A stretch of 64,000 nucleotides of DNA, taken from contig CAJNUA010000046.1 in NCBI GenBank assembly GCA_905330235.1, positions 311,575 through 375,574 of the forward strand, read 5' to 3'. How positions within the stretch are numbered: position 1 is the stretch's first letter; every line of letters begins with the position of its first letter. The notes beneath the pieces are model-generated. The model ran no database searches. It worked only from the letters and a program-made list of their open reading frames with translations, and was not told the DNA's origin. A program made the translations under genes and the position numbers. Source of the DNA: Rotaria sp. (Eukaryota). Below, in pieces: positions 14,565 through 58,791 of the stretch.

Positions 14565-15236
14565 TTAACTCTACTTTAAAAGTTCAATTTGAAGTGTTAC
14601 TTTAAACTTTAAAGTTTAAAGTTAAAGTAATACACTTCAAAACTGTAACTTTAAAAAATCAACGTTAAAGTACGTATGTTAAGGATCAATAATGGAACTT
14701 GATTTTATGAGTAAGTGGTTTTTTGGAAAATAACGATTTTTATAAAGGTTGACGATAGTAAATCGGGGTCGGGGAATCCGAATCAGAAATTCAAATTTCA
14801 AAATTTTGAGTTTCACGTTTTTTCATAAGTGTTTTTTCAAAAAAAATCAATTCTTTTTATAGAAGTTCAATTTTTATCAATAAATCTCTTTTTACCTAAA
14901 AAAATTACATTTTTTGTCAAGAAATGTTTTTTTTCAAAAAAAAAAACAGGTTTTTATGCAAAAAGAGATTTATTGATAAAAATTGAACTTATGTAAAAAA
15001 CCAATTTTTATGAAAAAACGTGAAACTCCAAGTTTTGAAATTCTGATTTCAGATTCTGATTCTCCGCCCCCGATTTAGTTTTATCAACCTTTATAAAAAA
15101 ATCGTCATTTTTCCAAAAAACCCTTTCCATACTCAAAAACTCAAGTTTCACTATCGATCCTTAACATCCGTACTTTAAGATACTGTAAGGTACTTTATCG
15201 TACTTTAAGGTACTTCAAAGTACAAAAGTATCATGT
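14565..15236. mobile_element. foldback element / long near-perfect palindrome (arms ~250 bp, centre ~14900) flanked by tactttaaag-type satellite in inverted orientation
   Basis: 14679-14870 is the reverse complement of 14980-15164 at ~85% (ggaaaataacgatttttataaaggttgacgatagtaaatcggggtcggggaatccgaatcagaaattc...). The arms share aatcgttattttcc and gattcggattcc with the 120-bp units. Confidence 0.7.
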
Positions 15237-15922: not shown

Positions 15923-17167
15923 TCATATAGGGAGCTTTGATCTTTCTAGAGAGGCGATTTGTAATAATTGTTTTTCCACAATCTTAGAATTCCGAAAATC
16001 ACTCTCAGTAAATGTTGCACCAAACAAATCAGCATTTGTCAAATTTGCGTGATTAAATATGCATTGTTTACAATTAGCGTATCGCCAGTCACTATGACTT
16101 AAATCTGCACCCGTAAAATTTCCATTGATTACTCTACTATATTTCATTGATGCTTTATGCATATATGCATTTGAAAAGGTAGTATCAATAAACACAGCAT
16201 GATCAAATATTGAATTCATTAATTTAGTTTCAATTAATGCACATTTCGTAAAATTAGTATAAGTACCATTAACATGATTCATAGCCGTCTGATAGAAATC
16301 AACATTTAGACCAAACTTTGATCGATATAAATTAGCATAATCAAGTTTTGCAAACATAAATGAAGAGTTTTCAATAGCTGCATTTTCTAAATTTACTTCA
16401 ATCATAGTAGTAGAATCAAATAAACAATTGAGACAGAAAAATGTATGTAAATTAGCATGATTCATTATCACACCAATGAAATCAACATTTTCATATGTAG
16501 CAGAAAACAATGAAGCAGATGTTAAATTTGCATTATTGAAAAACAATTTTGGAGAATTATGTCTAAGAGTACTCATCTCATCATCAAATGTTGGAGCATT
16601 TCGAGTCCAAGAAAAATCAGCATTAATAAGTACAGCACCATTAAATCTTGCACCGCGGATATTAATTTCATGAAAATTAGCTCGTATCATAATAGTACTT
16701 TCCAATGAAAGATGAAATAATACTCTTCGTTCAGATTCATCAATTAATTTTAAATCAGTTAAATTAGCGTATTCAAGTGAAACTGGTGGTCGATAATCGT
16801 CTGATCGATAGGTGATTAATTTAGCTTCATATAATAAACGAACGAGAAAATTTCGTCGAGCAGAATCTAGACGATTTAATGCTGAAAGAGTGGCAAAACG
16901 AGCGATAAGTGAAGCAGATGAACTTTTATTAAGTTCTGTACCATATTTTTCAATTAATTTACTTAATGTCTTTTGACATTCATGAAGAATTTGATCTTTC
17001 TGTTGATCATCGGCTATATCAAGGTCTTGTTTACGATTATGATTTGCTATTGCAAAATCACGGTTACTTTCTAATACAGTATAAACACCAATAGCGATAG
17101 GAATAGAAATTGATATGAATAATTGAATCCAACCAAAACATGAATGATTATTGTTTTTCTGTTCCAT
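15923..17167 (-). CDS. pentapeptide-repeat protein with N-terminal transmembrane helix, intronless, 414 aa
   Basis: TM segment GWIQLFISISIPIAIGVYTVL, then coiled-coil-like region. More than 40 consecutive A(N/D)LxxA/F-type pentapeptide units follow (ANLTNADLFGATFTESDFRNSKI, NHANLHTFFCLNCLFDSTTM...). Confidence 0.7.
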   Translation of the reverse strand: MEQKNNNHSCFGWIQLFISISIPIAIGVYTVLESNRDFAIANHNRKQDLDIADDQQKDQILHECQKTLSKLIEKYGTELNKSSSASLIARFATLSALNRLDSARRNFLVRLLYEAKLITYRSDDYRPPVSLEYANLTDLKLIDESERRVLFHLSLESTIMIRANFHEINIRGARFNGAVLINADFSWTRNAPTFDDEMSTLRHNSPKLFFNNANLTSASLFSATYENVDFIGVIMNHANLHTFFCLNCLFDSTTMIEVNLENAAIENSSFMFAKLDYANLYRSKFGLNVDFYQTAMNHVNGTYTNFTKCALIETKLMNSIFDHAVFIDTTFSNAYMHKASMKYSRVINGNFTGADLSHSDWRYANCKQCIFNHANLTNADLFGATFTESDFRNSKIVEKQLLQIASLERSKLPI

Positions 17168-20033: not shown

Positions 20034-20246
20034 TTATGCATGTGGTTTTCCACTGTGTTCAGCAGTGCAACCATGTTGATCACAACTACTATGCCCTATA
20101 TTTGATGGATTAATCGGTGGTAATGTTTGATTTGTGCTTGGATGCATACCAACTGTATTTGTTATTGAATTCATACCTGGCGGTGCCGATTCAGTAGCTA
20201 ATTTCCCATCTGAATCTTGTATATAGTGAGTAGATGAAGACGACAT
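20034..20246 (-). CDS. hypothetical small protein (70 aa), no recognisable domain
   Basis: Isolated ORF in an AT-rich desert; Ser/Pro/His-rich, ends CDQHGCTAEHSGKPHA. Weak support. Confidence 0.12.
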   Translation of the reverse strand: MSSSSTHYIQDSDGKLATESAPPGMNSITNTVGMHPSTNQTLPPINPSNIGHSSCDQHGCTAEHSGKPHA

Positions 20247-23200: not shown

Positions 23201-25287
23201 TTAAAACTAATAAATCTTATTTTATCGATGTTTTCTATTCTACCTGTGACTTCTAAAACTACAAACATTTTGGCTTACAAAATCAAATAATATAGAATAT
23301 ATATATTTAATTTTTATTTCAGCTGTTACATCTTGCTGCACGGTTTCATTGCATTAACAACAGCTGAGACGTCATCAACATACTTGATTTAGTGCCTTTA
23401 AAGAAAAAGCCTCAATATGTGATATATCACTTTTTCCGATGAATCTTATCTCAGCTGGTAAATATTATTGAGTATAGTAAAGCCTCAAAGGGTTCCTGTT
23501 TATTAGTCTTTCTTCTTGATTTATGACTATTTTAACGAATTTTGCAAGAAAATGTTTTTAATCTCTTTCAGATTATCTTCAAACTCGACAGGTGAATTCA
23601 AGCTTCGTATAAATAAGATCTTCAATGAAATTTGTTAATTTTGAAAGTGTCAAATTTCGCAGAATATCCTATTTTGAGACATAAATTTAAGAACAAACAT
23701 CGTTTATTCGATTAATATTATTTTCTTTGTTCTTATCTGAAAACAGAAGATGCTGCGAAATTTGATACTTTCAAAACTAATTAGTTCCATTGAGAATTTT
23801 GTTTCTGCAAAGTTTGAAGATGATCAGAAACAGACTAAAATGATCATAACTACACAATAAGGACTTATATAAACGAATTGCTTATGGCTTTCTTTAATCT
23901 CAATAGGGATAATCTAATACGATGAGACGAGTGGTCTCAAAAGGCGATTTGTGATTTGACGAAGTTTCTCCGTGAAATATATATGTGCAATGGAGACTTG
24001 ATTTATTTATAGCATTTAATCAGGACGATTAAAACATCATTAACACGATCTAGCAAAATTTTTCTATCATATCGAATAACATTTTAATGGTTGCTTGTTT
24101 TTTCATAACGAAAATTATTTGAAGATGTACAACAAAATCATCTACATATGTTTTTTTCTCGAATCGGTACATCATTCTTGTGTCACAAATAAGATTGAGC
24201 AAAAAAAAAAGATTTATATTTTAGTTTTTTATAGAGCTTGTAGTAAATCCATAGAACTAGAATCCTTATTACGAACTTTTATATTGAGAGAACGTACTTT
24301 AGATAACCGATTTTCTCGAGTAGTGATTTTTCATTATTTCTTCTTAGGGGCTATTAAAGGAGTTACACAACTTCTCATCCACGGTCACTACCTTGTTTTC
24401 AGGGATTAAACAGATCAATGTACTGTCCAAGCAATTCGTGCATCTCTTTAGAAAAGCTACATATTCGTTAAAAAAATATGGTTTGTTGCTGATATGGAAA
24501 CGTGTCAAAAATGTTGTTTCCTAATTAAATATTGTAATATATATATAATTTGCTTTGTACACTATACTGTGGTTCTTGTCCAGGCCAACGATACTTTTAA
24601 CTAATTATTATGATTGACAGTGGGCAACAACACAGAATGAAAGTCAGGGTATGAAAAGTGTGAGAATGAGCGTGTCGTCGGTCTGAAGCAATACCTATAC
24701 ATTATTCACAAATAATGATGTGAAATGAATGGTGGAAAAATTTGGTAATTAAAAATATTGTCACCCTTTTGCAATAATCATAACATCAAACAAGTTTATT
24801 TTACCTTTGTTTTTAAAGTTATTATTATATAATAGAAAGTCGAACCTCACGAAAAAAAACTTTGCTTAAAAAAATAAGGTGTCAGCCGTTCGACATTTAA
24901 GTAAAATGCCTTTTGACGTTTCTTTTTGTCATAGTTAGATCAAGCTCTTTGATTTAACTATAGAAATATTCTTTTCTTGATGTATTCAGACGACGTTATT
25001 GTAGTGAAACTTACGATAGTTAATTAGAAAAAATCAGAAAAGCCTATGAAAATTGAAAAACTTCAAAAGTATCAAGTTTTTGTATCGTCAATATTCATCC
25101 AAATATTTTTTTTGACTTGTCATATTGTTAGAAAACAAACTAATACATACTTCTTGAAAAATATTGTTTGATTATGGAAAAAAAAATTTTCTTTTCAACA
25201 TAATAGCAGAAAAATCATAAATACGGGTTTATATTTTAAGAAATCGACTATCAAAACTTCAGTTCAGAAAGAAACGAATATTATGTT

Positions 25288-25470
25288 TAGAATCAGCGTA
25301 AAAATCTGTATCGAATAATATACTCAATACTTCATCAAATCTTGACCTTAGTAGGAGCACAGATCACAGTATTAGAAAATCAGAGTGAGGGATTCTAAGA
25401 ACTAAAATCTGAAGAAAAGCAGTTTTGAGTATTGAATATATTAGTCAATACAGATTTTTACGCTAATTCT
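25288..25470. mobile_element. MITE-like hairpin element, ~183 bp, ~45-bp terminal inverted repeats
   Basis: agaatcagcgtaaaaatctgtatcgaataatatactcaatact (25288-25330) is the reverse complement of agtattgaatatattagtcaatacagatttttacgctaattct (25428-25470). Confidence 0.55.
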
Positions 25471-26454
25471 GAATATGATATCCATTTCTTTCGAAACTAA
25501 AGCTTTGATGGACAACATTTTAAAATAGAAATCCGTATTTATGACTTTATTGCTATTATATTGCAAAAATAGCGATTTTCTCGGCGATTGAAACAATATC
25601 TTTTCGAAATCATCCATCATTCTTTTTGTAACTTTATTTTGAGTAAAATTAAGAACAAATATATTTGGATAATTATTGAGGTTACGGAGACTTCATACCA
25701 ATGACATATTTCAATTTTTATAGGTTTTTCTGACTTTTCAACTTAATATTCCTCAGTTTCAATACAAAGACATTGTCTGAATATGCTAAAAACAATATTT
25801 CTTATAGGTAACTCGATGAAACTATATCTAATCATGATGAAAAAATGCCACAAAAATTTGCTCAAATTTCAAATGGTCGACATCTTACATATCGTACTTC
25901 ATCTATTCAATATTTATAAGTATTTTGAGTTAACAAGTCATGTAAGCAATGATTAAATTTGTTTGATCATTACTAATAATGTATTTAACTAAATGCATCT
26001 CAAGAATATTTTAGAGAATCGATTGTTCAAATAGTCGTATTAAGATGAAAATATCATCAACATGAAACTCATTATAAGAATTTGATATTAAATTGAATAT
26101 AAAAATAATCTCAAAATTATTTTCTGCATTCATGCAAGTAATATTATCGAAATTAAGCTTGAAACAACAAGTAACAGCTGTTTATCTGGAGTGTCTCATA
26201 TAAATTATATTTTGCGTATAGATATTTTCTTTTAATAAACTAGAATAAACATGCAGAGTGGGTGATATACATATCACTAAAATAAAAAAAACGAGAGATT
26301 TTTGCATCAGTGAAAACAAATCCGTTGATTTTTTTCGTTAGCGGTAGAAATTTATTCAAATCTTTTCTATATAGATAAGATAAGCAAATACTACGGTTAC
26401 GTATTATTGTTGGTAATATGAAAATAAATTTATCTGTTATCAAATAAGAAAAAT

Positions 26455-26975
26455 ACATGTGTAATGTTTCATAAATAATTTTTAGTTGTCGTTTAAGAGA
26501 ATAATGATAAAAAATCAAAACGAACTATATTGATGCACGCAGAATAAATTTTCAGATCTAATTAGTTTAGAAGTCAACGACTACAAAATTTTGAATTTTC
26601 AAACATGAAACACTGAGTTTTGCAATAAAGTTAATGTCCAAAGAATTGTAATGGGGCATTTCACTTCTGCAACACGAATCTCAACATTTAAACTCACTAT
26701 TAGTTTTAAAAACTTGCTTTGCGAGCATCAATATAGTTCGTTTTGATTTCTTATCATTATTCTCTTAGACAATAACTAAAAATAATCCATGAAATGTTTT
26801 ATATGTATTTTTCTTACTTGAAAGTAGTATATATTTCTGCTATTAGAACGAACAAAACCTTGAAATTAATTTTCTTTCACTAATGAAAAAATCAGCCCAT
26901 TCGAGCGAATTGAAGTGAAGATATTTTAATTTATTATTGTAGTGCTATTTATGGTCTACCCTACATTTTAATCTT
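26455..26975. repeat. repeat family R1 copy A (~520 bp) containing a ~310-bp hairpin with ~90-bp arms
   Basis: 26462-26545 pairs with 26715-26800 (gtcgtttaagagaataatgataaaaaatcaaaacgaactatattgatgc / gcatcaatatagttcgttttgatttcttatcattattctcttagac). The 3' part tcagcccattcgagcgaattgaagtgaagatatttt...ggtctaccctacat matches copy B. Confidence 0.65.
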
Positions 26976-27358
26976 CAAAACAAAATAAGCTTTTTTTATG
27001 AACTAAACTTCAGCAGAATATTGATATCATTTTACCATCGGATGCTAAGCAAATATAAAATTCATTTTTTTATCTATCTCAATCGAATTGTAAATATTTT
27101 ATAATAGAATAATTCTCAAGTCTGTAGCTTTGTTTTTTTTAATTTTATCATTTTAAAGAAATAAAAGTAGTATTGCAATTTAAAATAAGGCATAAACCAT
27201 GAAAAAAAGTAATATAGAAGAATACACGTTCTTATGTTTAAATTAACCACTCGATGATACTGCATGACTTGCGATCCATTCCGACAAAGCTTCTGGATTT
27301 CGTGTCTAAAATTTATATATATATATAATTTTCTATCGAATGAAAATATTTTTATTTC

Positions 27359-27737
27359 TTATATTACTTGAATATAAACTGTTCCAGGACCAGTAAATCG
27401 ACAAACAAGTCCTTCACCAGCATGCATTCCACTCATAAGACCACCACCGGTTCTTTCAATTGCATATGGACAATTCCATGCAACTAAATGTCCATTATCA
27501 ACAATCCATTGTTCACCTTGTCTTAAATAACGTTGTACAATAGCGCCAAGAGACGTAACAAAAATAATTCCAACACCTGATACACGATGAACAAAAAGAC
27601 CTTCACCAGAAAACATTGCTTTACCCAATCCTTGAGATTTCGTGTCTTTTACAACACCATGAGTCATAGCTAAGTAACCACCTTTGCCTATATTCCACTG
27701 AGTTTGACCATCTAATTGAATAGGAACGATATCACCC
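27359..27737 (-). CDS. AIM24 / DUF124-family protein, exon 2 of 2
   Basis: Acceptor ttttatag|GGGTGAT. The encoded GDIVPIQLDGQTQWNIGKGGYLAMTHGVVKDT...GTVYIQVI* matches the family pattern (PGDIVPIELDGESW...). Phase is consistent with exon 1. Confidence 0.8.
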
Positions 27738-27921
27738 CTATAAAATAAAATTAAAAAAACGATAGTTCTTATTTTTATTTTATCACAAGAGGCATTAAGA
27801 TATTGAAATATTTTTAACAGACTTTTATTTGTTTTTCATAGTTGAAAAATGTTCACTTAAATTTACTATGAAATTATAATATAGGATACTAGTACTAGTT
27901 AGAAGCTAATGAAAATCTTAC

Positions 27922-28220
27922 CAAATAGGTGGTGCAAGTAAGATTTCTCCAGGACCAGTAAATGTTGACTGAGCCATTTCACCACCTGTCAACATTTTTT
28001 TGAATGAAAATTTGAATTTTCCTTTGAGTGTCACTTCTGGACCCATAGCAACCATAGCTCCTGGTTGTGCATAAAATGGAATATTTGGTTGTAAAGTTAT
28101 TGAAAGAAGTGCATTTGTATCACGATGATCTATTTTGTAATAACCACCATTAAATTGACCTATTACATCTGCTAAACTAGTAACACCCGACGGTTGTGCT
28201 GCTGCTGCTGCTGCTGCCAT
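27922..28220 (-). CDS. AIM24 / DUF124-family protein, exon 1 of 2 (Met start, poly-Ala N-terminus); whole protein ~225 aa
   Basis: MAAAAAAAQPSGVTSLADVIGQFNGGYYKIDHRDTNALLSITLQPNIPFYAQPGAMVAMGPEVTLKGKFKFSFKKMLTGGEMAQSTFTGPGEILLAPPIW. Donor TG|GTAAGA. Intron 27738-27921. Confidence 0.8.
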
Positions 28221-29295
28221 TTGTCAGTATGAAAATGCTTCAGAATGTTTTTTTTTTCTATTTGATATGAAAAGATTAGTAAAATTATAAGCTTTGTATA
28301 TATATACTTAAGAAAAAAAACGCGAGACAACTATGCGTAGAGAAGAAGAAAAAATGAGTTAACTATGTCGGGTATACAAATATATGTGCATCATGAGGGT
28401 CTCTCTCCGTAGGATGAAAGCAATGAAAGAAGGAGAATAAGTGTTATTCATTGAATGACTCAGAAATAAAATGGAAGGAAAAGAAGAAAATACAGACTAA
28501 CATGTGTCGACGTCAGCAAAAAGACAAATAAGAGAGTAGGATGCTATGGAGAATAGATGAATAAATTCATACAATTTTTCTTATTTCTAACAACAATGAT
28601 TGAGAATGCATTTAGGTCATATTTCAATCAAATATTCGATGTACGAAAGCATCTCTTATATGGGTAGTATAATATCGATATTTGAATCAGAATAAGGCCT
28701 TGAAAATATACTACGCATTGACGTTAGATAAAAAGAAAGAAATTATCGATTTTTTTTCATGCGTTTGCATATTTGTCACACCTGTTTTTTTTTAATGTAA
28801 AACATGTTTGATGAATATTTATACATCGTTTACAACGAATATTCTTTGAGTTATTAGAACCAATTTCCACGATTTACATGCCATTCAAAAAATTAATTCG
28901 TGGTTATATTAACTTACAAAGTCATAGATTTTAGATGTCTGTGAAAGCTATTTAACAAAGACAAAAAAGGAGATACAAACTTCAAAAAGTAACAGTGCAA
29001 GTAGTAACTGATGATGATTCGTCATGTAATTACGACGAATTCATTAGTCGTATATGATTAAACTATAGAAAAATTTAAACTAAAAATGACAAAAGTCAAT
29101 TAAGTACAAATGACATGTCGTTTTCAAAAGAACGATAATACATTTAAACACAGACGATCTTCATTCGTGTAGTTATCGTGTTAAAATACAAGCAAATGTA
29201 GCGGTTGATATGAAACAGATAAACACTAAGAAATTTAGTTAATGATTAGATCTTCTTGATTAAAGAATTCAAGCTGATACTTACAGGGTGAATCA

Positions 29296-29360
29296 TAGAT
29301 AGCACTATGGTAAAAAATTGAAAGATCTCTACTTCGATTCGCTCGAATGAGCTGATTTTT
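29296..29360. repeat. inverted fragment of repeat family R1 (reverse complement of the tcagcccattcgagcgaattgaagtgaag segment)
   Basis: agatctctacttcgattcgctcgaatgagctga is the reverse complement of tcagcccattcgagcgaattgaagtgaagat. Confidence 0.5.
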
Positions 29361-29489
29361 TTGGTGAGTGATAAAAAATCTTTTTAAGTTCTTTTTTCAG
29401 ACGGATAATAGAAATAAAATACAACTGTCCAGTTACATTTTGGGTCTCACTAACAAAACTTCATTTATTATCAAATTAAAAAAAAATCA

Positions 29490-30065
29490 TATGAAATGTT
29501 TCATACATTTTTTTCAGTTGTTATTTAAGAGAATAATAATACGAAATCAAAACGAATTATATTGATGCACATAGAACAAGTTTTCAAAGCTAGTAGTCAA
29601 TTAAAATGTTGAAATTCGAGTCCCATAAGTAAAATACCCGATTGAAGTTTTTTTAACACAAACTTCTTGTAAAGATCAGTATTCAACGTTCGAAAATTCA
29701 AAATTTTGTAACTCTTGACCTTTAAACAAACTGGTTTCTAAAAAATTGCACTACGTGCATCAATATAGTATCATTCATAAATTTCATTTTGATTTCTTAT
29801 TATGACTCTCTTATATAACAACCGAAAATTATCCATGAAACGCTTTATAATTATTTTTCGTACTTGACAATAGGTAAAATTTCTTTAATGAGACTAACCA
29901 GATAACTTGACAGTTATATTTGTTTCTATTATTCGTATGAAAAAAAAACTAAATAATCCTTTTACACTAAACAAAAAAATTAGCTTATTTGAGCGATTCG
30001 AAATGAAGATATTTCGACTTTTTATCGTAGTGTTGTTTACAGTCTACCATGTATATAAAATAGCC
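29490..30065. repeat. repeat family R1 copy B (~575 bp) with internal hairpin, same orientation as copy A
   Basis: ttgttatttaagagaataataatacgaaatcaaaacgaattatattgatgcac...gtgcatcaatatagtatcattc. The 3' part ttagcttatttgagcgattcgaaatgaagatatttcg...agtctaccatgtatat aligns with copy A. Confidence 0.65.
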
Positions 30066-30662
30066 CTTATTGTGATGATAAATGGTTATCAATGTCTTTT
30101 CTCCTATGTATTTTATCCCTTCTCTTCTATGTATGAACTATTGACCGTTTCTTTGAGTATGATTCGCATTGTTTCGTCTTTTCATTTGATGCGAATAATA
30201 CCTTTTTAGTTCTACCGTGATTTTTTCACATTGTCATTATTCATTCGATGTTATCGATCTGTTGAAACTACATGATGACCTATGCATGTATCTTTAGTAT
30301 GGGTTCTCTCAACAAGAAAAGAAAAGCGTTCCTCTAATTTATAAATACGATATGTTATTCTTTTCTTGATTCATAATAGAGATGTTTATGTTTGAAAAAT
30401 AAAAAGCTTTTTAAAATTTTTTTACAAAAAGAAGTTTGAATAACAATAACATACTTTCCTTGCTTCAAAATCATTAGCATGCAAGTTCTATGAGATAGTA
30501 ACAATAGAAAAAGAAAGAAGAGATTCTTGTTGATTCAATGAGACTTAATTACATAAGTATTAGGAAAGATGTAAAGAAGTTTTATTTATTCTTTTTTCTG
30601 CTTCTTTTTTATTTCAAACATATATCTGACCCCACTCTTACTGGAAAAATGTCCGCACATAC

Positions 30663-30680
30663 ATATATATATATATATAT
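30663..30680. repeat. (TA)9 microsatellite
   Basis: atatatatatatatatat read directly. Confidence 0.9.
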
Positions 30681-33600
30681 TCTTCTATCCAGGGAAAACA
30701 TGTACATATACATATAGCGGTGGATGACTAGATATCATAGAACAAAGAAAAGGTATATCTAGTCATCAAAAGAAATATAATCAGTTACAAATGATATAGC
30801 TATAAGAAAAGAAAAACGAAAGAAAACAAAAGAGACCTAGATAAATGAAATAGAGTGGAAACGATGTGAAGGGCGAGCCCGTAACAATAAGTTAGGATTG
30901 CAGCAAGATGAAACGATTGTTTCGTATTCATCTGACAATAATTTACAATCATTCTCACCCTTTATACAAGCATAAACATAATTTGATAGCTGAGTAAATA
31001 GATTTGTGTAAAATGTATTCGATATTGATATCAAAATCTGACAAAATAAATACATAGCATACGGCGTTCAAAAGCTATAACTGTGACTTGATTGACATCT
31101 CGAATTTTATTATTATTATAAGACTCGTCATAACTATCACTGTATTGACATGTCTATATTGAGAAATTTATAAAAGATGATAAATGAAATTTTCATTGCT
31201 TTTTATCTTATATAACTTACTCACAAAAAAAAAACAAAAGCAAAAATAAATAATTTTATACTCGAAAAGTAAACAGTAAACTATTAGAAAAAAACTTATT
31301 TCTTTTTTTGTAGATAAAAAGACAAATATATTCTTTTGCGCATATTTGGTTGTTATCTCATTCTTTTTCTCTTGTGTTAAAGTAGAAAAGAAACTTGTTG
31401 GATAGTATATGATCAAGTTCTAGAAAAAAAAAGCTGTTACTACAATATATATGTGATTAAGATATGCAACATAATATAGTTGCTGTTGCTAATCACACGA
31501 AGATTCTCTTATTCAATCTATTTTCGAACACATTTCTTCGCTATCTGCTTACTTAATTTTGGAGAAATACAGTAAAAAAGTAGTTCAGATATCATAATGA
31601 AACGCTATTGATATATGGCCAGTAATCGTATATTAACAACTTATATTACGACCTGTGACAAAGGAGAGACGTTGCTAAGGATGTCTGTCATGTCTGTGGC
31701 GAGAATGAGTTCAAATTTCTACCTCTAAACTTCAACCCTTTTACATCATGTTTTACAAAGAGCCTATAACACGTATTACTTTTCTTATTAACTGTTTCCA
31801 TCTGATATCAAAGCTCATCATTATCTAATTAAATACGAGGTAAGTTATAATAGATTTTATTTTTTTATCATCATCATTTTTCCAAAAATTTTCACATACA
31901 AACTCTCACGACAATATATAATCGGTTTGAATAATAATTTTAAAAAATCATACAAAAACGGTTTTAATCAAAACCTAGTGTTTGTGTTTCTAAAACGGAC
32001 AATAGATGAGCATGAGTATACTAATGATATCAAAAACAACGAAGGGTTGTTGTCTGACCGATGATACACCATTGTATAAGTCTGAATTGCAACAACATGT
32101 CGTGATATTTCCTCAAAATCGGGTGCATTCAATGTCATACATTTGTTATCAACCACTTCGTATTCACTGATATCAACGGCATCTCGACTAATGACACTTA
32201 CATCGGTTTTGATTTTCTTTGAAAAATATAGTTAGTCTTGTTAAAAATGTTAGAGAATACGTAATTTTTATCGTTGGCTAGATTGTACCGTGACTTTTCA
32301 TGCATCTGCAGCTTGTCTTGCATTAAAAGGATCATTACAATCTGGTTTACTTACTAAGAATATTACATTGATGCATTGATAGGCTTCAGTAGACCAGATA
32401 ACTATAAGAATTTTATCCTCGAATAATTGTTCAATGTATATTCTATGTTTAAAACTTATTAAGTGAACAAACGAGAGCGACCAGAATTAATTTCAGGAGT
32501 GAATACTTGTTGAAGTATTGTTATTTATCGTCAAGCACAGCTGAAATGGGTAATAACATGGATTAAATGCTGTCGTTACTCTTGTATATATATTCATCAT
32601 GGAGACGTAATAAAAGTAATTATGTGTTATCTCATCTTGCAACACAGTTGTGCAATATTCTTAGTTTGAAAAAAACTTCTATTTTTACATGAATGATGGT
32701 CGTTTTCGGTTGGTTCTGTTTGTTAACTGCTATCGTTTTTCTGTTCATATGAAAAGAACTTCTGGAAATTGATGAAATATTGAAGAGTCATAATAGACCA
32801 GTGCTGTGCAATGACGTTGAGTTTTCGTTAGATGAAGTTTATCGTATTTACGCCACTAAAAAAATGGGAGGATCATTCATTTAAAAAGTAATTTGAAAAT
32901 GTTTTTAATGAATATATTACAAGATATGCCTTCAATCTTTTATTATTTTGTTTTGCTTGTTTTTGATGCAGTAGTAGTTCTATGAGATGATGAGAATTGG
33001 GAATCTTCGTATCACCCAAAAACTGACGCGTATATCCTCAAAATAGCTGGTTTTTCGAATATTCTATATGCAGTTAACGGAGTATAAGTGTAAATGCATT
33101 CAAAATAATGCTGTTTGAAGTCCTTTGTCTTCTCTATTAGACTCTTAGTTGTGATATAATCGATTAAATCTCAGAATTGGTTAAAAATGCCTACTTATTA
33201 TCAAAGGATAAAGGCGTTGGATTTCTATCACTTAAAAGACACATTTTTGAAGCAAAACATTCTTAATTTGCTTTATTTGTTAACATGTTTTATCGTGTCT
33301 AGAAAACAAATGAAAAAAAAAGTAAAATTTAACGGACTTGTACAGTTTCAAAAAGGGGTTTTTTTCCAGAAGCCTTCTCTTTATTACTCATTTTATTTTA
33401 TTAGATATCAATAGATCTTCGTTATTAAGTATTCACAACCAATATTCGGATCAATTCGAATAATTCAATGCAGTAGCATATCGGAGAGATAAGCCGCACA
33501 CTATTCTGTTACCAAGATGCCAAAAAACGACGAATTTGTCAAGCTGAAATTTTCAATTCAATTACAGTCACAGACATAAATTCTAATACCTAAGGTTTCC

Positions 33601-34004
33601 ATTGGCAACCAAGGTCGATCAGTCATACTCATCAATCGCCATACGATTAGCATTATTTGATGACGATGTAGTTTATACGTTTTGCGAGAATGTTTTCGTC
33701 CAAGATGTAGACTACTATTACTATTTCTGTATAACAAAAAGATTGTATTATTCACCTATGATAACATATTAAAGCAGGAGTGTCTGTTTTGAAAAAGTTG
33801 TCCGAATTCATTGAAGTTTGGGTAGCTTGTAGAAGTAAATAAGATACATGCATCATAAAATTTTCAGTTTGATATGCTTTATTGAAGAAAAGTTATAATG
33901 AAAATATGTCTGTATGAAATTGATGCAGATATAGAATAAATTTTGTTTAGTACTATTTTCATAAGATTCATCGGCTTTTTAGATTTCAAAGTATGACAAA
34001 AATT

Positions 34005-34063
34005 GGGTGTGGATGTGGGCATCAAATCAAGTATATGTCAAAAAAACACTCACACACCCACGC
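34005..34063. repeat. interstitial telomere-like repeat gggtgtggatgtgggcat followed by C-strand copy cactcacacacccacgc
   Basis: Same G-then-C architecture and the same ttgggtgtgg.tgtgggcat junction as the 12683 locus. Confidence 0.6.
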
Positions 34064-35052
34064 TTAAATTCTCGCTTTGAACGTGCAATTATCTGTTCTC
34101 ACTTATTTTCTCTCTGTCTTTTGCCAAACGATAATATTGCGGTCATACTCATCCTCATCCAGGTGCTCTTGCATCATGTTCATCTTGGTCAAAGTTTTGG
34201 ACTACACATCAATGAAAATATGTAAACATCGGTGATTCTTGAAAAAAAAATCAATGATAATCTGTGAACATAAAGTCTCTACTTCGGTGAATATTGACTT
34301 TTCAGAAAGCATCGATTGAAATATGTGGAATCACTCTGTAGTCATGTGCGATCATCAATGATTTTGAGAAAGCATGCGTTTTTATTGATGAAAACAACAT
34401 TGCACCTGAAATAAAATATGTTTTTGTTTTATGTAATCCACTCAGAGAGTCGTCGAAAGCAGTAATTTTGTTTTTCTAACGAGTGATTCTTGATAACAAA
34501 ATCTAAAAAACAAAACTTGCTTTACATTTTAAACAGTTTGTTTCTACAGTAAGAGGTCTAGGCATGAAATATTATGTCGACAAGTGAATAGTTTTGAAAT
34601 TTGCTTACACAATCGGTATAAAATGCTTTCAGAGAATACAACTGACCAAATCAATTCCGAATCGTACTACTTGTTCTTAGCTCCATAGATGAGAAGCCAC
34701 AGCACTTGATGATAAAGACATTTTGAAAAAATTATTGTGGACTGAAGGCACCTTTCATCACGCCACTTTCAAGCTCGATCAAAAGAGTCCTGACATCTGA
34801 AGTTGATTAATTCGAATGCATGACTTTTTTTATTCGTTCTTTCAACCTGCATCCCTCAAGTCATTATATCGGTGTATTATGTAAATATACCGCCTATTTT
34901 TTCATTAATGTTTTGATCATCGACTAGAAGAGCATGTTTGCATTTTATTCCAGTGTTATTCAGATTATATTTTTGCACGTAGAGGACAAATGATTGCTCA
35001 TGATGTATAAAAATGAAATCGGTGTTTGTAGAAGGCAACATTTCATTCCTCG

Positions 35053-35835
35053 TTGGTATTCATCATCATGGTATCAATGAATGTGTTTCTAGTACTTCTT
35101 ATCGTCACTAAGCTTCACTCGTTTGTATTGCGGTCTGATCAAAATATTCTATCTCAAAACGGAAAATCTCAATCACCTATCTCTGTCGATCTATCTCAAA
35201 CGAAGTATGGTTTATATCCACCATTTCTCTTTTCTACAGGTTATCGTCGACCCACAGTGTTTCAAGTGTTCAATCGTAATGGTGAAACAATTTCGATTAC
35301 CCCCATCCTCGTAGATTCGACAACTCTGGTAGTTAGTGGTGGTTGTCTGTCAGGTATATTTACATTCCAAAGTGCCCATCTTCATTGGCCAATGTCAGAA
35401 CATAGATTCACAAAAAAAAATTATGTAGCCGAAGCTCATTTTATTCATAAAAACTTGAATACAAATGAGACAGCTGTTTTTGCTTATTTCTTTACATTAG
35501 CCGATTCTCAGTCACAAGAGAATGATGACGAGTTGAACAGTTGGGAATTCGTTATACAAAGGTTTACTAACAATACTAATATGACGATCGTAGATGGACT
35601 ATCATCATTTATGAAAGGAAACACAAATCAATTCATTCACTATACAGGCAGTTTGACAACAGAACCTTTTACCGAAGGTATCATTTGGATACTTGTCTCA
35701 AGTGCCATGAAATTGAGCGACACTTCGCTCAATCGTCTTCGCACAAATGTTGTCGCAAGCAATTATCGACTGATCCAACCTGCCAATGATCGCCTTGTTC
35801 GCCGGAGCTTTCTTTCAACTTCATGGAACACATAA
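35053..35835 (+). CDS. alpha-carbonic anhydrase, secreted (signal peptide), intronless, 260 aa
   Basis: SQSPISV (QSPIDI motif). AHLHW holds zinc His94/His96 equivalents; SEHRFTKKNYVAEAHFIHKN holds the His119 equivalent; YTGSLTTEPFTEGIIWILV is the Thr199-loop motif. Hydrophobic N-terminus MVFIIMVSMNVFLVLLIVT. Confidence 0.8.
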   Translation: MVFIIMVSMNVFLVLLIVTKLHSFVLRSDQNILSQNGKSQSPISVDLSQTKYGLYPPFLFSTGYRRPTVFQVFNRNGETISITPILVDSTTLVVSGGCLSGIFTFQSAHLHWPMSEHRFTKKNYVAEAHFIHKNLNTNETAVFAYFFTLADSQSQENDDELNSWEFVIQRFTNNTNMTIVDGLSSFMKGNTNQFIHYTGSLTTEPFTEGIIWILVSSAMKLSDTSLNRLRTNVVASNYRLIQPANDRLVRRSFLSTSWNT

Positions 35836-38800
35836 TAGAAAATTTCTTTATTAGTTTAAATTTATGTCACTTACAGTAACGATTAAAAATAAAAGGAGCT
35901 GACAAAGCATTATAAAAACATACAAAAAAAGTGATCTAAAAATATGTTTGAGATAAAAATATAAATGTCTCCACTCTGCTTGAAAGTATTGGACTGATTT
36001 TTTTATAAGTGATACAGAAGTCCATAAAGTTGTTTTTCATTAGATAACCATTAATGAACACTGGTTTCAATTGACGACATTCACTTTAATACAATGGTAT
36101 AACATTGTAGAGTGTAGGTATATTGACGTATATGGCTTTGGCTGTGAAGGTCATAAGTTTACCTACATTCATCTGCCTCGCCTGTACCCATACCATAAAC
36201 TGATATAATATTTCGAAGCTTGCTTTGTAATATACTCAGATCAGTCAAACAACGGCGACTAGTATTAGAGCATGTCTGTCAAAGAAAATACAAACGAATT
36301 TGTGCTATTCGTTGAAGGTGATAGGTAAAGGAGACAGTGAAGAAAATCTAATACGTGTTGTTTAAAAAACGGTTCACAGGTAGATAGGATAGAGAGCTGC
36401 CGCACACAAGTATTGACTAGATGTTTGATTGGAAATTACAGTGATATTCGAAATGGATACACAAATGAGTGTGACATTGCCAATTAATAAGAACTGGAAA
36501 GGATTAATTTGTACATGGACAGCAAAAGACCGTGAGGTACTAGTGTATGGGTTTGAAAATCAATGTAGCAGAAGAATAAATTGAAATTATTTTCGTGCAC
36601 TAGTGGTTTACTATTCGTGATGGGAAAGAAAAAGGCTCGAGTCTCCGAACAATGCTCTTGCAAATTGAGGACTTCTCATTTATGAATATGTGTTTGTTGT
36701 TTGCTTGGTGGATATAAATACATTTTATAACGGCGTTTTTTTTGCTGGCTCTAGTCGTTCAATTCGTTGATTGAGTATTGAATACACTATCGACAACAGA
36801 GAAGTGTGTCGTTTTACGCTTGACTTTTTTTTTGTTCACTAGAGGACCGCTCTCGTATCTAAATCTGCTCCGCTAAAAACACGGAAGTCGATCAAAAGTT
36901 GGTATTTCTAGTACGCAGTTCATATTTGGAAAACCTTTTCTAGATAGTAGAAAGCTGTTGCTCTCAAATCATCTATATGCTAGGCTATTTTGGTTTTGCT
37001 TCGTTATTTTCAAGAGTAGATGTGAGAGTATCAATTGTGAATGTAAGATCCTAATAACGTGATATAAATAAGTCTCATCAACATAAACGATATTTTTTTT
37101 GTATTGACAAACATACCTTAAGGATCTGTATCAATCGTATTGTTATCGGCGACGGTTATAGCATTTGAATTTCATATAATACATTAACGAAATTTAGATT
37201 GATTAAAACATAGATATATAACGTAGGAATCTATCAGTTATAGTCAGATTTTTCAATAGCGGAGATAAATTGATATTGTTTATTAAATGTGAAAATAATT
37301 TACCGAACTTCAGGTGATCTGTCAAATTATCATATAAATAAAATAAGATCTTTCAATCATTGTTAGTTGGAAAATGAAATTATTTTTCAAAACTCTATAT
37401 TAAAAATAATATGAAAGTCATATTGATGAACTATTGAAAGAAAAAAGTACATACGATTGAGAAATGAGACACATATCTAAGTTCATTTTGATGATTCCAA
37501 ACATTTATAAATGAAAATTTCAGATTACATATAAGCCTAATAAATGGATGTTGAAATAACGAATCAGATAATATTTGACAAACTACAAAAAGAAAATTAT
37601 TGAAAGTTCATCCGTTGTTGGATTGATCAAAATCTGAACAATCATCGAAAAATACAACACACTGATTGAAGGCATCTTGCTTATCAAAAACTAGAGAAGT
37701 TTTCATATAATTTTTAATCAATCTTCATCGATCATCAAGAAAAACAACATCGACATATTTCTGGCAACTACTTTTTCTACGACAAAGCTCATTGAAAGTT
37801 ATTTTTGTCTTCTGTATAGAGAAACGATGTATTGGTTGAACAAATTTGCTTTTTAAATGCGACTGTTTGCATTTGAAAATATCATATTATTCTTCTCATA
37901 ACTTTTACTTCATTTGATAAACTGTACTTATCTGAAAAAATAAATTTAACTCATTATTATCTTATTTTAACGAAAAATTCGCATTACTAAAAGATATCAG
38001 CTATTGTTTATTAACGTTTAAAATTTTGAACTCTTGTCAGATGTTTGATCTAATATATTTGTTAATCTCTAAGACATTTGCTTTATAAACATTCATGGAT
38101 TCTCTATCTCTGAGTAGATTGATATTTACTTTTATGTCACGAGTGTTCTATACAATATGCCGAAGAAAAAGTGTATATTTACTTTTAAATAACAACATCA
38201 AAAGAAAAAAAAATTGATGATCGATCAAGAGATAATGGTGATAGGAAAAATCAATACATGATTCAAATTTATTTACTCAGTTGTTTCTTGTGAAATTGCT
38301 TCATAAGAAACAAAAAAAAACATCTGATTTGTCGTTCGATCGAAGTTATCCCAAGTATACGTCATTCTATGATGGATATCAAATTTTTCAATAGAAAGTT
38401 AACCTTGACATGTTGCCACTTTTCGTTGGTCAAGTAGCAACTAGATATAATATAAAATGTCAAGTGTCATTTCCAAAACAAAAAACAAAGATCATGATCA
38501 ACAGTCAATCTATTTCCTTAAGTTGATCGAAAATAGCCAATTAACAAGTGATTTTATATTGTCAGAAGTAGTCCGAATGATATTTGATGAAAGTCTTAAC
38601 ATATTTGCACCGAGAAAGTTTTTTTCGAAATAAAAGTTGACAATTTTTGTTAGCATTGCATTTGCAACCATTCTATCATTTTGAGCTTGTGAATACATTT
38701 TCATCTTTTATTTTACAAAAACAAACATTGTTTATGCATTCTTTTCGATTACAAGAAATGTTCACTATTATAAGTGAACACATATTTGCGTATCGTTAAA

Positions 38801-40345
38801 TCAATGGTAAATAATACTCACAAAAGTCACACAGAAAAATATATATTCTAGAGAGAATCGCCTGGAATCAAAGAATATATTGATGGTTATGACTATTCAC
38901 ATTTTAACTAAGAAGTTAACCGAACCAATCAATAAAATACACAAAAAACAGGCTAATGATATACGGTGAAGCAATGTTTAGAAACTACAAAATCCTGCCG
39001 ATGTTTCTATTTTACGTGATAATAAGTGCGCACATTACCTATGAATATTTTTTTCTCTATTTATGTTTAATCGATATCCTTTTGATGATGTAACAAACGT
39101 TTATTCTACAATTTTCTTTAATTGTATTTGTTTTAATAGCTCTTACAGATGCAGATTCCTATTACATGTTTTTGTATATTTCGAAGTGAGTGAAATAAAA
39201 TTACCCATTTTTTTCGTTTTATTGAAGCTATTGTCATAAACTATTCACCGTCTACTCTTTCAATAAAAGTAAATTCTTGCGTTCAGTGGATTAAAAAAGA
39301 AGTCGCAGGATTCAATACTAATAAACATCGTAAATCTAGCAATCAGCTGAATGAATCTACATGTATTGATGTTTCTATTTGCAAATCAGGAAATATCTAA
39401 TATATAGTTGATAAGAAAAATAAACTACTTCAATTGTTCACGTTTAGTCAATCATCAATAATGAGTATCGCTGTAACGTCTACCGAAACTTTTCCTTTCA
39501 GAATGTATATTAATGATGTCAATTGATCTAAAAAATGCGTTTTACTCTCCGATAGACATCGTGCGAATAAATAGATTGAAGGTGCATTAGCAACCAGATT
39601 AGTGGAAAATGAATGTTAAGTTTGTAAATATAGAGCATTCAACAGCCAGAAAAATATCTACAGTGTAATTTGTTGTTCTGAATAGTTTTTTTTTAACATG
39701 AATTATAATTTTTCACAAGCAAAACAGGAGTACTGCTACAGTTAGTTTCAGTTAGGAAGAATTCATAATAGTTCGTGTGTTTCAAGAAAAATTTCAATCT
39801 GATAAATAGAATGATTAATAAATCAGGCAAGATCCAATTTCGATAGCTGAGAGATGTTCACAAAAAGATTCTTTTTTCTTTGTTTTTAAATTCTTGGCTC
39901 ACTTTGACAAATTTATCACAATGCATCAATTTTCAGGAATAGTAGTCTCTAGAAAAGTCAACATAATTAAAAGTCTGATAGCACTTTGATGAAACTTTGT
40001 GTACTAACCGAAAGCTACTCATTATTTGTATTGGCACACATGATTTGATAAATGCTAAAGGCAACATTGGTTCATACTTTTTTAACTACTATAGTCCATT
40101 TAACAAACAATAAATTGATGTCAGGTACTTTCTACAAGTATCTGAGAGAGTTATTATAGGTCTATATAATTAGAACCTTTATTTTTAGACGCCACGTAAC
40201 AAATCATGCCCAAAGATTTGAAAAACAAAAACTATTCTCTTCCATTAGAACCGCGCATATGGTGTCTATAACAGTGCATATGGGAATAAAAACAGTCTTA
40301 TTTAAGTCGAACAAAAACAAAATGAAATATAAAAATATTTTTGAT

Positions 40346-44837: not shown

Positions 44838-45689
44838 CTTAATAACAAACAGAGATAATATTGTATTTGTCATCGAAATGTCAGTGCATAGCGACAATGA
44901 AATATACAAAAATTCAAAATATTTATCACATCTATGTGGATGTAAAAAATACAAAGCATTATGAATATTATTTTACTTATCTTGACTCGCTTAGGTATTG
45001 GAAGCATTTAACAGAGTTTCTCAATTTTAGTATCTTTTTCAATTTTCTATTTCACAAGAAAATCTAATCAGCATAGTTTCTTTTAGACTGCTATGTAAAA
45101 TTGACTTATCCTTCTCACCTTAATTATACTAATAAAAAGAATGTGTAATCTAAAGTCACTCTAATGTAAACAGACTTGGAGGAAGTATAGGTACCCGAGA
45201 AATCCATTACTGTATGCGTTTCAGATACATTTTTCTTAGTTTTTATTGACTTTGTATTTTTAATCGTCTTATCGCGAAGTTATTATTTTACTGTATTAAC
45301 AAATAAGACTGGAGAACTCGACCGATATTACAAACGGTTTTTTTTGCAAAAAATATTTTCTACTCAATCTCGAAAGACAAGGGATTATGTAAAATTAAGC
45401 AAAACAAACTGACAAAGAAACGTTTGCGATTGATCAATCACTATTGCATTCGGACTCACGTCAGTGCATAAGGGATATTCCAGTAAGATATAAAAAAATC
45501 TCCAAAATATAAGTGCCATTGGATCTTCTGTCCAAAGTTATAATCATTTGGCCAGAATTTTACCCTTCGTCATGGTATATAGCAACAAATCGAATGATGG
45601 TACTTTGACATGATATTTCTTCTTACCAACAGATCTATTTGTCAGTAGAATGTTCTGAAGGTTTCAGCTCAAAAGAATAACGGGTGGGG

Positions 45690-58593: not shown

Positions 58594-58791
58594 CTACAAA
58601 AAAAAACAATAATTGCTTAACTTGGCATCATTCGGTCTATAATTATGGCTTTCTCATAAATTATGCATTAGATTCATGACGATGAATGGAAGACAAAATA
58701 AATTCACTAAACGTTACTCTCTACACTAATAGTTATAAAGAAGAGTAGCTCATGTCTAGAATGACAACTCCCATCGTTAAAATAGACTTAC

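What the first reader, a model, noticed from the sequence alone, without database searches (positions are those of the whole stretch)
26455..30065. AIM24/DUF124-family gene bracketed by ~0.5-kb direct repeats (family R1) that each contain a hairpin
The only gene between 17 and 35 kb (27359-28220) belongs to a family found widely in bacteria and archaea and as mitochondrial AIM24 in fungi, and it has a single acquired intron. It lies exactly between two same-orientation copies of a repeat (26455-26975 and 29490-30065), and an inverted fragment of the same repeat sits at 29296-29360. This is compatible with a repeat-flanked, possibly mobilised or horizontally acquired cassette. Bdelloid subtelomeres are known to accumulate foreign genes.
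Basis: partly seen in the sequence, partly recalled or inferred. Interest (0 to 1): 0.55.

Follow-up and report, generated by a model that had tools for sequence, protein, structure and literature searches.

The report
Old rotifer gene between two decayed transposons
A long-resident, fungus-like AIM24 gene of a bdelloid rotifer has two old, separately inserted hairpin-shaped transposon relics on either side, so this is ordinary junk DNA next to a gene and not a mobile gene cassette.

Summary
The repeats and the AIM24 gene are real, but the cassette reading fails.

**Repeats.** A (26253-26964) and B (29284-30051) are complete 712- and 768-nt foldback (whole-length palindromic) elements with no coding capacity. 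Their termini are CAGRG/TAGGG. The "inverted fragment" at 29296-29360 is simply B's left end. The non-palindromic cores match only in reverse, so A and B lie in opposite, not the same, orientation.

**Independence from the gene.**
- Rotaria magnacalcarata keeps the gene and its flanks at the same syntenic locus but lacks both A and B, with clean empty sites.
- R. sordida shares A.
- R. socialis lacks A. Almost at B's site it carries an unrelated hAT-like element with an 18-bp TIR and an 8-bp TSD.
- Adineta steineri keeps the gene next to the same small neighbouring gene.

So the gene predates the repeats.

**Gene model.** The gene has three exons and two introns and encodes 243 aa (not 225), ending at 27243. 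Both intron positions are shared by all bdelloid paralogues examined and by neither fungal gene examined.

**Affinity.** Mean identity to the window protein is about 78% for bdelloids, 70% for the nematode Panagrolaimus, 55-59% for Dikarya fungi and 38% for bacteria. This fits an ancient fungal-type acquisition, not a recent or bacterial one.

Ordinary overall; low interest.

The parts
27922..28220 (-). AIM24 exon 1 (ATG at 28220; ends ...APPIW with a phase-2 split)
   Evidence: Spliced translation. Collinear with bdelloid homologues.
27738..27921 (-). Intron 1, 184 nt, GTAAG...TTTTATAG
   Evidence: The same position (PPIW|GD) is found in A. steineri, A. vaga (both paralogues), R. socialis and R. 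sordida.
27368..27737 (-). AIM24 exon 2
27306..27367 (-). Intron 2, 62 nt, GTAAT...TTTTAG.
   Evidence: The same position (YIQ|TRNP) is found in all bdelloid loci examined.
27243..27305 (-). AIM24 exon 3 (TRNPEALSEWIASHAVSSSG, stop TAA at 27245-27243)
   Evidence: The C-terminal motif TRNPEALSEWI is conserved in bdelloid and Panagrolaimus homologues, and in diverged form (TRNPTAF/TRNAEVL) in the two fungal ones.
27006..27242 (-). Conserved 3' flank (probable 3'UTR; ATTAAA at 27143)
   Evidence: Part of a continuous 1.8-kb alignment with R. magnacalcarata and R. socialis. Poly(A)-signal scan. The UTR assignment is inferred.
28221..28780 (-). Conserved 5' flank (probable 5'UTR and promoter)
   Evidence: Alignment with L001 and L004-L009. 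The function is inferred.
26253..26964 (+). Foldback element A (R1 family), 712 nt, whole-length palindrome. Termini GCAGAGTG... and ...CCCTAC. Lies 278 nt downstream of the stop codon.
   Evidence: Empty site in R. magnacalcarata and R. socialis. Orthologous filled site in R. sordida.
26563..26698 (+). Non-palindromic core of A, which defines its orientation
29284..30051 (-). Foldback element B (R1 family), 768 nt, whole-length palindrome. Opposite orientation to A. Lies 1063 nt upstream of the ATG.
   Evidence: Empty site in R. magnacalcarata: 97 nt between anchors, against 864 nt in the window.
29593..29740 (-). Non-palindromic core of B (reverse complement of A's core)

Best explanation
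The window comes from a Rotaria-like bdelloid rotifer.

**The gene.** The AIM24/DUF124 gene (three exons, 243 aa) is an old resident of this locus.
- It was probably acquired from a Dikarya-type fungus, or a related donor, before the bdelloid radiation and genome duplication.
- It then gained two bdelloid-specific introns.

**The repeats.** The two flanking repeats are decayed copies of one non-autonomous foldback (MITE-like) DNA transposon family.
- The termini resemble those of hAT elements (CAGRG/TAGGG).
- Each copy was a near-perfect ~0.7-kb palindrome around a ~135-nt unique core.
- Each inserted separately into non-conserved intergenic DNA: A just past the 3' end of the gene, B about 1 kb upstream of the ATG, in opposite orientation.
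- B possibly arose by a short-range hop from A, or A from B.
- Both have since drifted to about 75% arm-to-arm identity.

**What is shown and what is inferred.**
- Shown: the anatomy of the elements, their absence at orthologous sites, the conserved position of the gene, the shared introns and the sequence affinities.
- Inferred: mobilisation in trans by a transposase, the hAT assignment, the local hop and the fungal donor.

The gene-between-repeats arrangement is a neutral by-product of transposon insertion. It is not a unit of mobility.
For: **Synteny**
- The window is collinear with the R. magnacalcarata and R. socialis loci across AIM24, an LRR gene and an Ariadne gene.
- It shares AIM24 plus the neighbouring 69-71-aa gene with A. 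steineri.

**Empty sites**
- A: 58 nt separate the anchors in R. magnacalcarata, against 91 + 712 nt in the window.
- B: 97 nt against 864 nt, a difference of 767 nt for a 768-nt element.
- A is present at the orthologous site in R. sordida, in a contiguous alignment at 83.6% identity running through the element and the gene.

**Element anatomy and family**
- Palindromy and fold statistics.
- Opposite orientation of the cores.
- No Pfam-detectable coding capacity in the element ORFs.
- Six termini share [C/T]A[G/T][A/G]G...CACTA.
- A remote relative lies beside unrelated genes in A. steineri (L002 226-742, E = 3e-14).
- At least six other long palindromic elements occur in the window.
- Foldback-like DNA transposon insertions and MITEs have been reported in bdelloids (PMC2861651, PMC7943196).

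**Gene**
- PF01987, E = 3e-61.
- The nearest non-bdelloid relatives are Panagrolaimus and Dikarya fungi.
- Intron positions are shared across bdelloid paralogues and differ from those of two fungal genes.
- Candidate homoeologous loci with a TPR gene upstream, AIM24, and (in two of three) a 7tm_1 gene downstream.
Against: - No target-site duplication could be recognised for A or B. A ~25-nt flank similarity at A is not significant (about 10% of controls score as high). A cut-and-paste mechanism and hAT membership are therefore unproven.
- Only two copies plus one remote relative of the family were found, in about 64 kb of window plus about 300 kb of partly redundant bdelloid loci. Two metagenome scans gave nothing real. 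'Dispersed family' therefore rests on few copies, and the closeness of A and B to each other is itself unexplained beyond the local-hop guess.
- B's status in R. sordida is unknown, because homology with L010 ends at window 28291.
- The phylogeny is only a neighbour-joining tree with weak support for placement inside Dikarya, so vertical descent with massive loss in animals is not excluded.
Confidence: 0.85

Rival explanations
1. Composite cassette. The two R1 copies act together as the ends of a composite or macro-transposon that brought AIM24 into this locus, or can move it.
For: Two copies of one family bracket a single gene within 3.8 kb. Their inverted orientation is what composite transposons often show. 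Few other R1 copies were seen.
Against: The gene, both flanks and its neighbours are present at the orthologous locus without A and B in R. magnacalcarata. A occurs without any demonstrable B in R. sordida. The AIM24 paralogue loci carry no R1. Each empty site matches one single element, not the 3.8-kb unit.
Confidence: 0.03
2. Local rearrangement, not transposition. A and B arose by palindrome-forming repair or inverted segmental duplication around the gene, for example after a double-strand break, so they are not mobile elements.
For: No target-site duplication could be found. The family has very few copies in the sequence available. Both copies are long palindromes.
Against: Both copies are discrete units with homologous termini, and their boundaries coincide with clean indels relative to R. 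magnacalcarata. A remote relative sits at an unrelated place in A. steineri. Many unrelated palindromic elements with their own terminal inverted repeats occur in the window. Two of the six with sequence in the R. sordida locus (at 23.6 and 24.9 kb), like A, are shared with R. sordida as units.
Confidence: 0.07
3. The AIM24 gene is not foreign. It is an ancestral opisthokont gene, vertically inherited and lost in nearly all other animals.
For: The gene is ancient in bdelloids, has introns and lies at syntenic loci. A second animal lineage, Panagrolaimus, groups with bdelloids at 71% bootstrap. Placement inside Dikarya is weakly supported.
Against: Identity to Dikarya (55-59% mean, up to 67%) is far higher than to chytrids or Amoebozoa (43%). 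No other animal appears among the best 120 hits of two searches. The intron positions are bdelloid-specific.
Confidence: 0.2
4. The foldback elements have been co-opted as regulators. Transcribed hairpins would give small RNAs, or the elements would act as boundary or enhancer elements controlling AIM24.
For: Very stable hairpins lie within 0.3-1.1 kb of the gene ends. A has been retained since the split from R. sordida.
Against: The arms have decayed to about 75% identity, as expected for neutral sequence. Both elements lie outside the blocks conserved with R. magnacalcarata. Related species do without them. There are no Rfam matches.
Confidence: 0.05

Closest known systems
Foldback / long-TIR MITE-like non-autonomous DNA transposons (foldback-like insertions and MITEs reported in bdelloids: PMC2861651, PMC7943196)
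   Same: - Sub-kilobase size and no coding capacity.
- Arms that pair over almost the whole length around a short unique core.
- Presence or absence at orthologous sites between related species.
- Several copies of the family.
   Different: - No target-site duplication could be recovered.
- Very low copy number in the sequence that could be searched.
- No autonomous partner identified.
- The family itself appears unnamed in the literature searched.
hAT-superfamily elements (Ac/Ds, hobo, Hermes)
   Same: The termini CAGGGTG, CAGAGTG and TAGGGTA fit the hAT YARNG end motif, and from memory resemble the Ac ends CAGGGATGAAA / TAGGGATGAAA. A clear hAT-like element sits at almost the same site in R. 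socialis: TIR CAGAGCATCAACCAGGCC, 8-bp TSD ATGTATAC. The tendency of hAT elements to hop locally (from general knowledge) would explain two linked copies.
   Different: An 8-bp TSD was not demonstrable for A or B. No transposase gene was found. hAT-derived MITEs usually have short TIRs, not whole-length palindromes.
AIM24 / DUF124 / TIGR00266 family (yeast Aim24; Podospora IDC4 and Neurospora EOP-1; plant AIM24-A/B, PAWH1/2)
   Same: Full-length PF01987 match (positions 1-203 of 205). Collinear with fungal proteins through to the C-terminal TRNP motif.
   Different: The bdelloid proteins lack the long low-complexity N-terminal extension seen in many fungal homologues, being about 240 aa against 250-390 aa. 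Their function in animals is unknown.
Bacterial-type composite transposons and Ac/Ds macrotransposons (gene flanked by two element copies)
   Same: A gene lies between two inverted copies of one element family.
   Different: Comparative loci show that the gene was there first and that the two copies are separate indels. There is no sign that the unit ever moved.

Membership tests
AIM24/DUF124 (PF01987) | Pfam HMM match above the gathering score over the full domain | tested here: met
   207.1 bits against a cut-off of 25.7; profile positions 1-203 of 205.
AIM24/DUF124 (PF01987) | Mitochondrial or ER-associated cellular role, as in yeast or plants | not testable with these tools
   No localisation or expression data. 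The N-terminus is short (MAAAAAAAQPSG...) and no targeting prediction was run.
Non-autonomous foldback/MITE-like DNA transposon | Terminal inverted repeats or long inverted arms | tested here: met
   A vs rc(A) 75.4% identity; B vs rc(B) 76.4%. Fold z-scores -16 and -15.
Non-autonomous foldback/MITE-like DNA transposon | No coding capacity | tested here: met
   ORFs are 100 aa or shorter and have no Pfam match at or above the curated cut-off.
Non-autonomous foldback/MITE-like DNA transposon | Insertion polymorphism at orthologous sites, with boundaries at the element ends | tested here: met
   Empty sites for A and B in R. magnacalcarata. A is filled in R. sordida.
Non-autonomous foldback/MITE-like DNA transposon | Target-site duplication | tested here: inconclusive
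   Flank comparison: A scores 9, a value that 10% of controls reach. B is at background.
Non-autonomous foldback/MITE-like DNA transposon | Multiple dispersed copies in the genome | tested here: inconclusive
   Two copies in the window, plus one remote relative and two weak hits in A. steineri L002. None in the other loci. Metagenome scans were uninformative. The host genome could not be searched.
hAT superfamily | 8-bp target-site duplication | tested here: inconclusive
   The 8-bp flanks of A and B do not match beyond chance. The elements are old (about 25% decay).
hAT superfamily | Termini of YARNG type | tested here: met
   CAGAG, TAGGG, CAGGG and CATGG in the window copies, and CAGAG and TAGAG in R. 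sordida.
hAT superfamily | hAT transposase (autonomous partner) | not tested
   No search for a transposase was possible in the host genome.
Composite transposon / mobile gene cassette | Cargo gene absent from the orthologous locus wherever the flanking repeats are absent | tested here: not met
   The gene is present without A and B in R. magnacalcarata, and without R1 flanks in A. steineri, R. socialis and A. vaga.
Composite transposon / mobile gene cassette | Both flanking copies arrive in one event, giving a single indel that spans the unit | tested here: not met
   Two separate indels of 712 and 767 nt. A is shared with R. sordida independently.
LTR retrotransposon / solo-LTR pair | Direct-orientation long terminal repeats | tested here: not met
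   The cores match only in inverted orientation. Each repeat is itself a palindrome.
Horizontally acquired (foreign) gene in bdelloids | Closest relatives outside bdelloids are non-metazoan | tested here: inconclusive
   Fungi dominate the hits at 55-67% identity, but the single closest outgroup is the nematode Panagrolaimus at 70-74%. No other animals appear in the top 120 of two searches.
Horizontally acquired (foreign) gene in bdelloids | Nested within a donor clade with support | tested here: inconclusive
   In the neighbour-joining tree, bdelloids plus Panagrolaimus sit beside Basidiomycota inside Dikarya, but the relevant bootstraps are 18-26%.

The most novel reading that the evidence does not exclude
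Bdelloid rotifers and Panagrolaimus nematodes are both desiccation-tolerant animals, and they are each other's closest AIM24 relatives (69-74% identity; 71% bootstrap as one clade). Both sit next to Dikarya fungi, and no other animal appeared in the top hits. The evidence does not exclude that this reflects either one transfer passed between animals or two captures of the same fungal lineage's gene, retained because it helps survival when dry. In that case AIM24 would be a convergently or serially acquired stress gene. The flanking repeats play no part in this.
Probability: 0.15. Interest if true: 0.55.

Novelty: new member of a known kind. Interest (0 to 1): 0.2.

Why it matters
It removes a tempting false lead. 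A gene neatly bracketed by repeats in a genome famous for foreign genes looks like a mobile cassette, but comparison with sister species shows that the gene came first and the repeats were added one at a time.

What remains is modest:
- a corrected three-exon gene model;
- an apparently unnamed, low-copy foldback transposon family in Rotaria;
- one more probable ancient fungal-type gene in bdelloids, whose only animal counterpart found here is in the anhydrobiotic nematode Panagrolaimus.

Tried and rejected
- **Own-genome look-ups.** The host genome could therefore not be searched for more R1 copies.
- **Metagenome scans.** Two scans with conserved R1 motifs gave 0 hits, then 12 chance hits with no R1 homology.
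- **Profile search.** An nhmmer R1 profile found no copies in A. vaga, R. sordida paralogue, Rotaria sp. Silwood1 or fungal loci.
- **Rfam.** The window and the 24.5-30.5 kb stretch were searched for ribozyme, SINE or tRNA-like origins (for example hammerhead motifs of Penelope-like elements). Nothing was found beyond one sub-threshold miRNA-like hit on another palindrome.
- **Long target-site duplication at A.** A ~25-30-nt duplication was suggested by eye from three-way alignments, but it is not significant against controls, so I dropped it.
- **Target-site duplication at B.** Several candidate registers were examined by eye against the R. magnacalcarata empty site. None was convincing.
- **LTR reading.** Rejected because of the inverted cores and the internal palindromy.
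- **Panagrolaimus genomic locus.** Needed for an intron comparison, but it is not on record.
- **Spliced-alignment script.** The first version timed out. A k-mer threading version replaced it.
- **First bootstrap.** The bootstrap values printed were invalid because of a rooting mismatch. They were recomputed as unrooted splits.
Full report
**Observation**

The gene lies on the minus strand. That product is a full-length AIM24/DUF124 protein (PF01987, 207 bits, E = 3e-61).

Homologues from Adineta and Rotaria all continue past '...YIQ' into a short last exon, 'TRNPEALSEWI...'. The window has the same arrangement:
- a GT donor directly after the CAA (Gln) codon at 27370-27368;
- a 62-nt intron at 27367-27306;
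- a third exon at 27305-27243.

The corrected product is 243 aa and is collinear to the last residue with bdelloid, nematode and fungal proteins. So the gene has two introns, not one, and ends at 27243, not 27359.

**The repeats**

The repeats are real.
- A vs B gives BLAST E = 2e-69.
- Global alignment scores are 434-522, against 34-62 for shuffled sequence, at about 73% identity.

They are larger and differently built than described.
- Each is a palindrome over its whole length. A is 26253-26964 (712 nt) and B is 29284-30051 (768 nt).
- Each matches its own reverse complement at 75-76% identity.
- As single-stranded DNA they fold into one long hairpin of -112 and -129 kcal/mol, with z-scores of -16 and -15.
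- The 'inverted fragment' at 29296-29360 is simply B's left terminal arm.

The ~135-nt non-palindromic core settles the orientation:
- A's core (26563-26698) matches B's core (29593-29740) only as reverse complement, with 101/132 matches and score 94;
- the direct alignment scores 20, which is the shuffle level.

A and B are therefore inverted relative to each other, not direct repeats.

Neither element has coding capacity. Neither matches any Rfam family. All six available termini (A, B and the R. sordida copy) share a [C/T]A[G/T][A/G]G...CACTA end.

**Surroundings and related loci**

The closest proteins are bdelloid, and their contigs could be fetched. The window is collinear with loci from other bdelloids:
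- With the Rotaria magnacalcarata and R. socialis loci it matches across a downstream block, AIM24 with about 240 nt of 3' flank and about 560 nt of 5' flank, an LRR gene and an Ariadne E3-ligase gene. With R. magnacalcarata it also matches across TIR/TPR genes.
- With Adineta steineri it shares AIM24 plus the adjacent small gene. That gene encodes 69-71 aa and lies at window 20040-20225 on the minus strand. It contradicts 'the only gene between 17 and 35 kb'.

Presence and absence of the elements at the orthologous sites:

| Species | Element A | Element B |
|---|---|---|
| Window | present (712 nt) | present (768 nt) |
| R. sordida | present at the orthologous site, inside one contiguous alignment at 83.6% identity that runs through the element and the gene | unknown; homology with L010 ends at window 28291 |
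| R. magnacalcarata | absent: 58 nt between anchors, against 91 + 712 nt in the window | absent: 97 nt between anchors, against 864 nt in the window, a difference of 767 nt |
| R. socialis | absent | a different, young element almost at the same point: 1,538 nt, perfect 18-bp TIR CAGAGCATCAACCAGGCC, 8-bp TSD ATGTATAC |

So the gene and its regulatory flanks are older than either repeat. The two repeats are separate indels, and only A can be shown to predate the split from R. sordida.

**Is R1 a dispersed family?**

- A profile built from A, B and the R. sordida copy finds a remote relative in A. steineri. It lies about 9 kb from AIM24, next to a QVR-domain gene (L002 226-742, E = 3e-14), and there are two weaker hits.
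- No copies occur in the A. vaga, R. sordida paralogue or Silwood1 loci.
- Two motif scans of metagenome contigs gave nothing real.
- The host genome itself could not be searched.
- The window holds at least six other long palindromic or long-TIR elements of other families: 7574-8564, 14665-15178, 23597-23818, 24875-25887, 45408-46838 and 61475-61951.

This architecture is therefore commonplace here. Foldback-like insertions and MITEs have been noted in bdelloids before (PMC2861651, PMC7943196).

No target-site duplication could be established for A or B. A flank similarity of about 25 nt at A is matched by 10% of controls.

**Origin of the gene**

Mean identity of the window protein to each group:

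| Group | Identity |
|---|---|
| Bdelloids | 78% |
| Panagrolaimus | 70% |
| Ascomycota | 59% |
| Basidiomycota | 55% |
| Chytrids / Amoebozoa | 43% |
| Bacteria (TIGR00266) | 38% |

Group labels for the outgroups came from cluster look-ups.

A neighbour-joining tree groups all bdelloid copies (70% bootstrap) with Panagrolaimus (71%). It places that clade beside Basidiomycota inside Dikarya, but with weak support of 18-26%. A reciprocal search with the Panagrolaimus protein returns bdelloids first (69-74%), then fungi (63% or less), and no other animal among the top 120.

Both bdelloid intron positions (PPIW|GD and YIQ|TRNP) are shared by every bdelloid copy examined, including both A. vaga paralogues. 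The Mucidula and Peziza genes have introns elsewhere.

The paralogous loci also share a TPR gene upstream (A. vaga, R. sordida, Silwood1). Two of the three have a 7tm_1 gene downstream, as does the A. steineri locus of the window-type copy. This is as expected of homoeologues.

The affinity is thus eukaryotic and fungal-like, not bacterial. Any transfer predates the bdelloid radiation. An AIM24 family survey (PMC10203443) describes a complex history in eukaryotes and does not mention rotifers. No paper found links AIM24 with rotifers.

**Mechanism**

The best-supported account is that R1 is a non-autonomous foldback/MITE-like DNA transposon, mobilised in trans.
- Its ends fit the hAT YARNG motif. 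This assignment is inferred; it is a resemblance and not a demonstrated membership.
- Two copies landed in unconstrained intergenic DNA, on either side of a resident gene.
- They then decayed neutrally.
- The closeness of the two copies, given the family's apparent rarity, is most simply explained by a short-range hop, which is typical of hAT elements. This step is inference from general knowledge.

Rivals carry low weight for the reasons listed in their entries: a composite cassette, a local palindrome-forming rearrangement, and co-opted hairpin regulators. Vertical inheritance of AIM24 remains a real but minority alternative for the gene's origin.

**Verdict**

- The cassette interpretation is refuted.
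- The foreign-gene idea survives only as an ancient, fungal-type acquisition unrelated to the repeats.

This is a new member of known kinds and of low interest. The one point worth a specialist's glance is the exclusive bdelloid-Panagrolaimus pairing of this gene.

Noticed in passing
L004 7527-9064 (R. socialis; also L005-L008 at about 1.24 kb); corresponds to window about 29214-29284: A young hAT-like non-autonomous element with a perfect 18-bp TIR (CAGAGCATCAACCAGGCC) and an 8-bp TSD (ATGTATAC). It sits within about 10-20 bp of where element B sits in the window and is absent from R. magnacalcarata. Two size variants (1,538 and about 1,238 nt) occur among R. socialis assemblies. The same intergenic spot was hit independently by two different elements.
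   Followed up: partly
window 20040-20225 (-): A small conserved gene (69-71 aa, ...DGKLATESAPPGMNSITNTVGM...CTAEHSGKPHE) lies next to AIM24 in Adineta and Rotaria, at about 70% amino-acid identity. In the R. magnacalcarata annotation it is fused to AIM24 as a false last exon (P0001, 301 aa).
   Followed up: partly
window 7574-8564, 14665-15178, 23597-23818, 24875-25887, 45408-46838, 61475-61951: At least six further long palindromic or long-TIR elements of other families. The 1-kb element at 24875-25887 is shared with R. sordida. Its ends, TAAGGTG/TAAGATG, and those of the element at 7574 (AAGGGTG) also look hAT-like.
   Followed up: partly
proteins P0023, P0027, P0323, P0330 (Panagrolaimus davidi, P. 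sp. ES5) versus bdelloid AIM24: Bdelloid and Panagrolaimus AIM24 proteins are reciprocal closest relatives (69-74% identity) and are closer to each other than either is to fungi. No other animals appear among the top hits. Both hosts are desiccation-tolerant.
   Followed up: partly
L029 10001-10923 and 14408-15330 (Rotaria sp. Silwood1; the same in L030): A tandem duplication of the paralogous AIM24 gene (two 245-aa copies 4.4 kb apart) in two Silwood1 assemblies but not in a third (L031).
   Followed up: no
window 15926-17167 (-): An intronless 414-aa ORF made of pentapeptide repeats (PF00805, E = 9e-31). It is a typical candidate for a bacterial-origin gene in bdelloids. The region is conserved with Rotaria loci.
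   Followed up: no
window about 30150-40070, including 35053-35832 (+): A segment of about 10 kb with no counterpart in the R. magnacalcarata or R. socialis loci. It contains a single-ORF eukaryotic-type carbonic anhydrase (PF00194, E = 1e-29).
   Followed up: no
window 52369-53040 and 58788-59462 (-): Two near-identical 224-aa TIR-domain ORFs about 6.4 kb apart (a tandem duplicate). Both match the same R. magnacalcarata TIR/TPR gene end.
   Followed up: no
window 3004-4231: Long overlapping ORFs on both strands (397 and 373 aa) across an internally repeated stretch (3175-4071, 74-77% self-identity) with strong GC skew. There is no Pfam match.
   Followed up: no
L010 11849-12083 (R. sordida copy of element A): The R. 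sordida orthologue of A carries an extra insertion of about 235 nt inside its left arm relative to the window copy.
   Followed up: no
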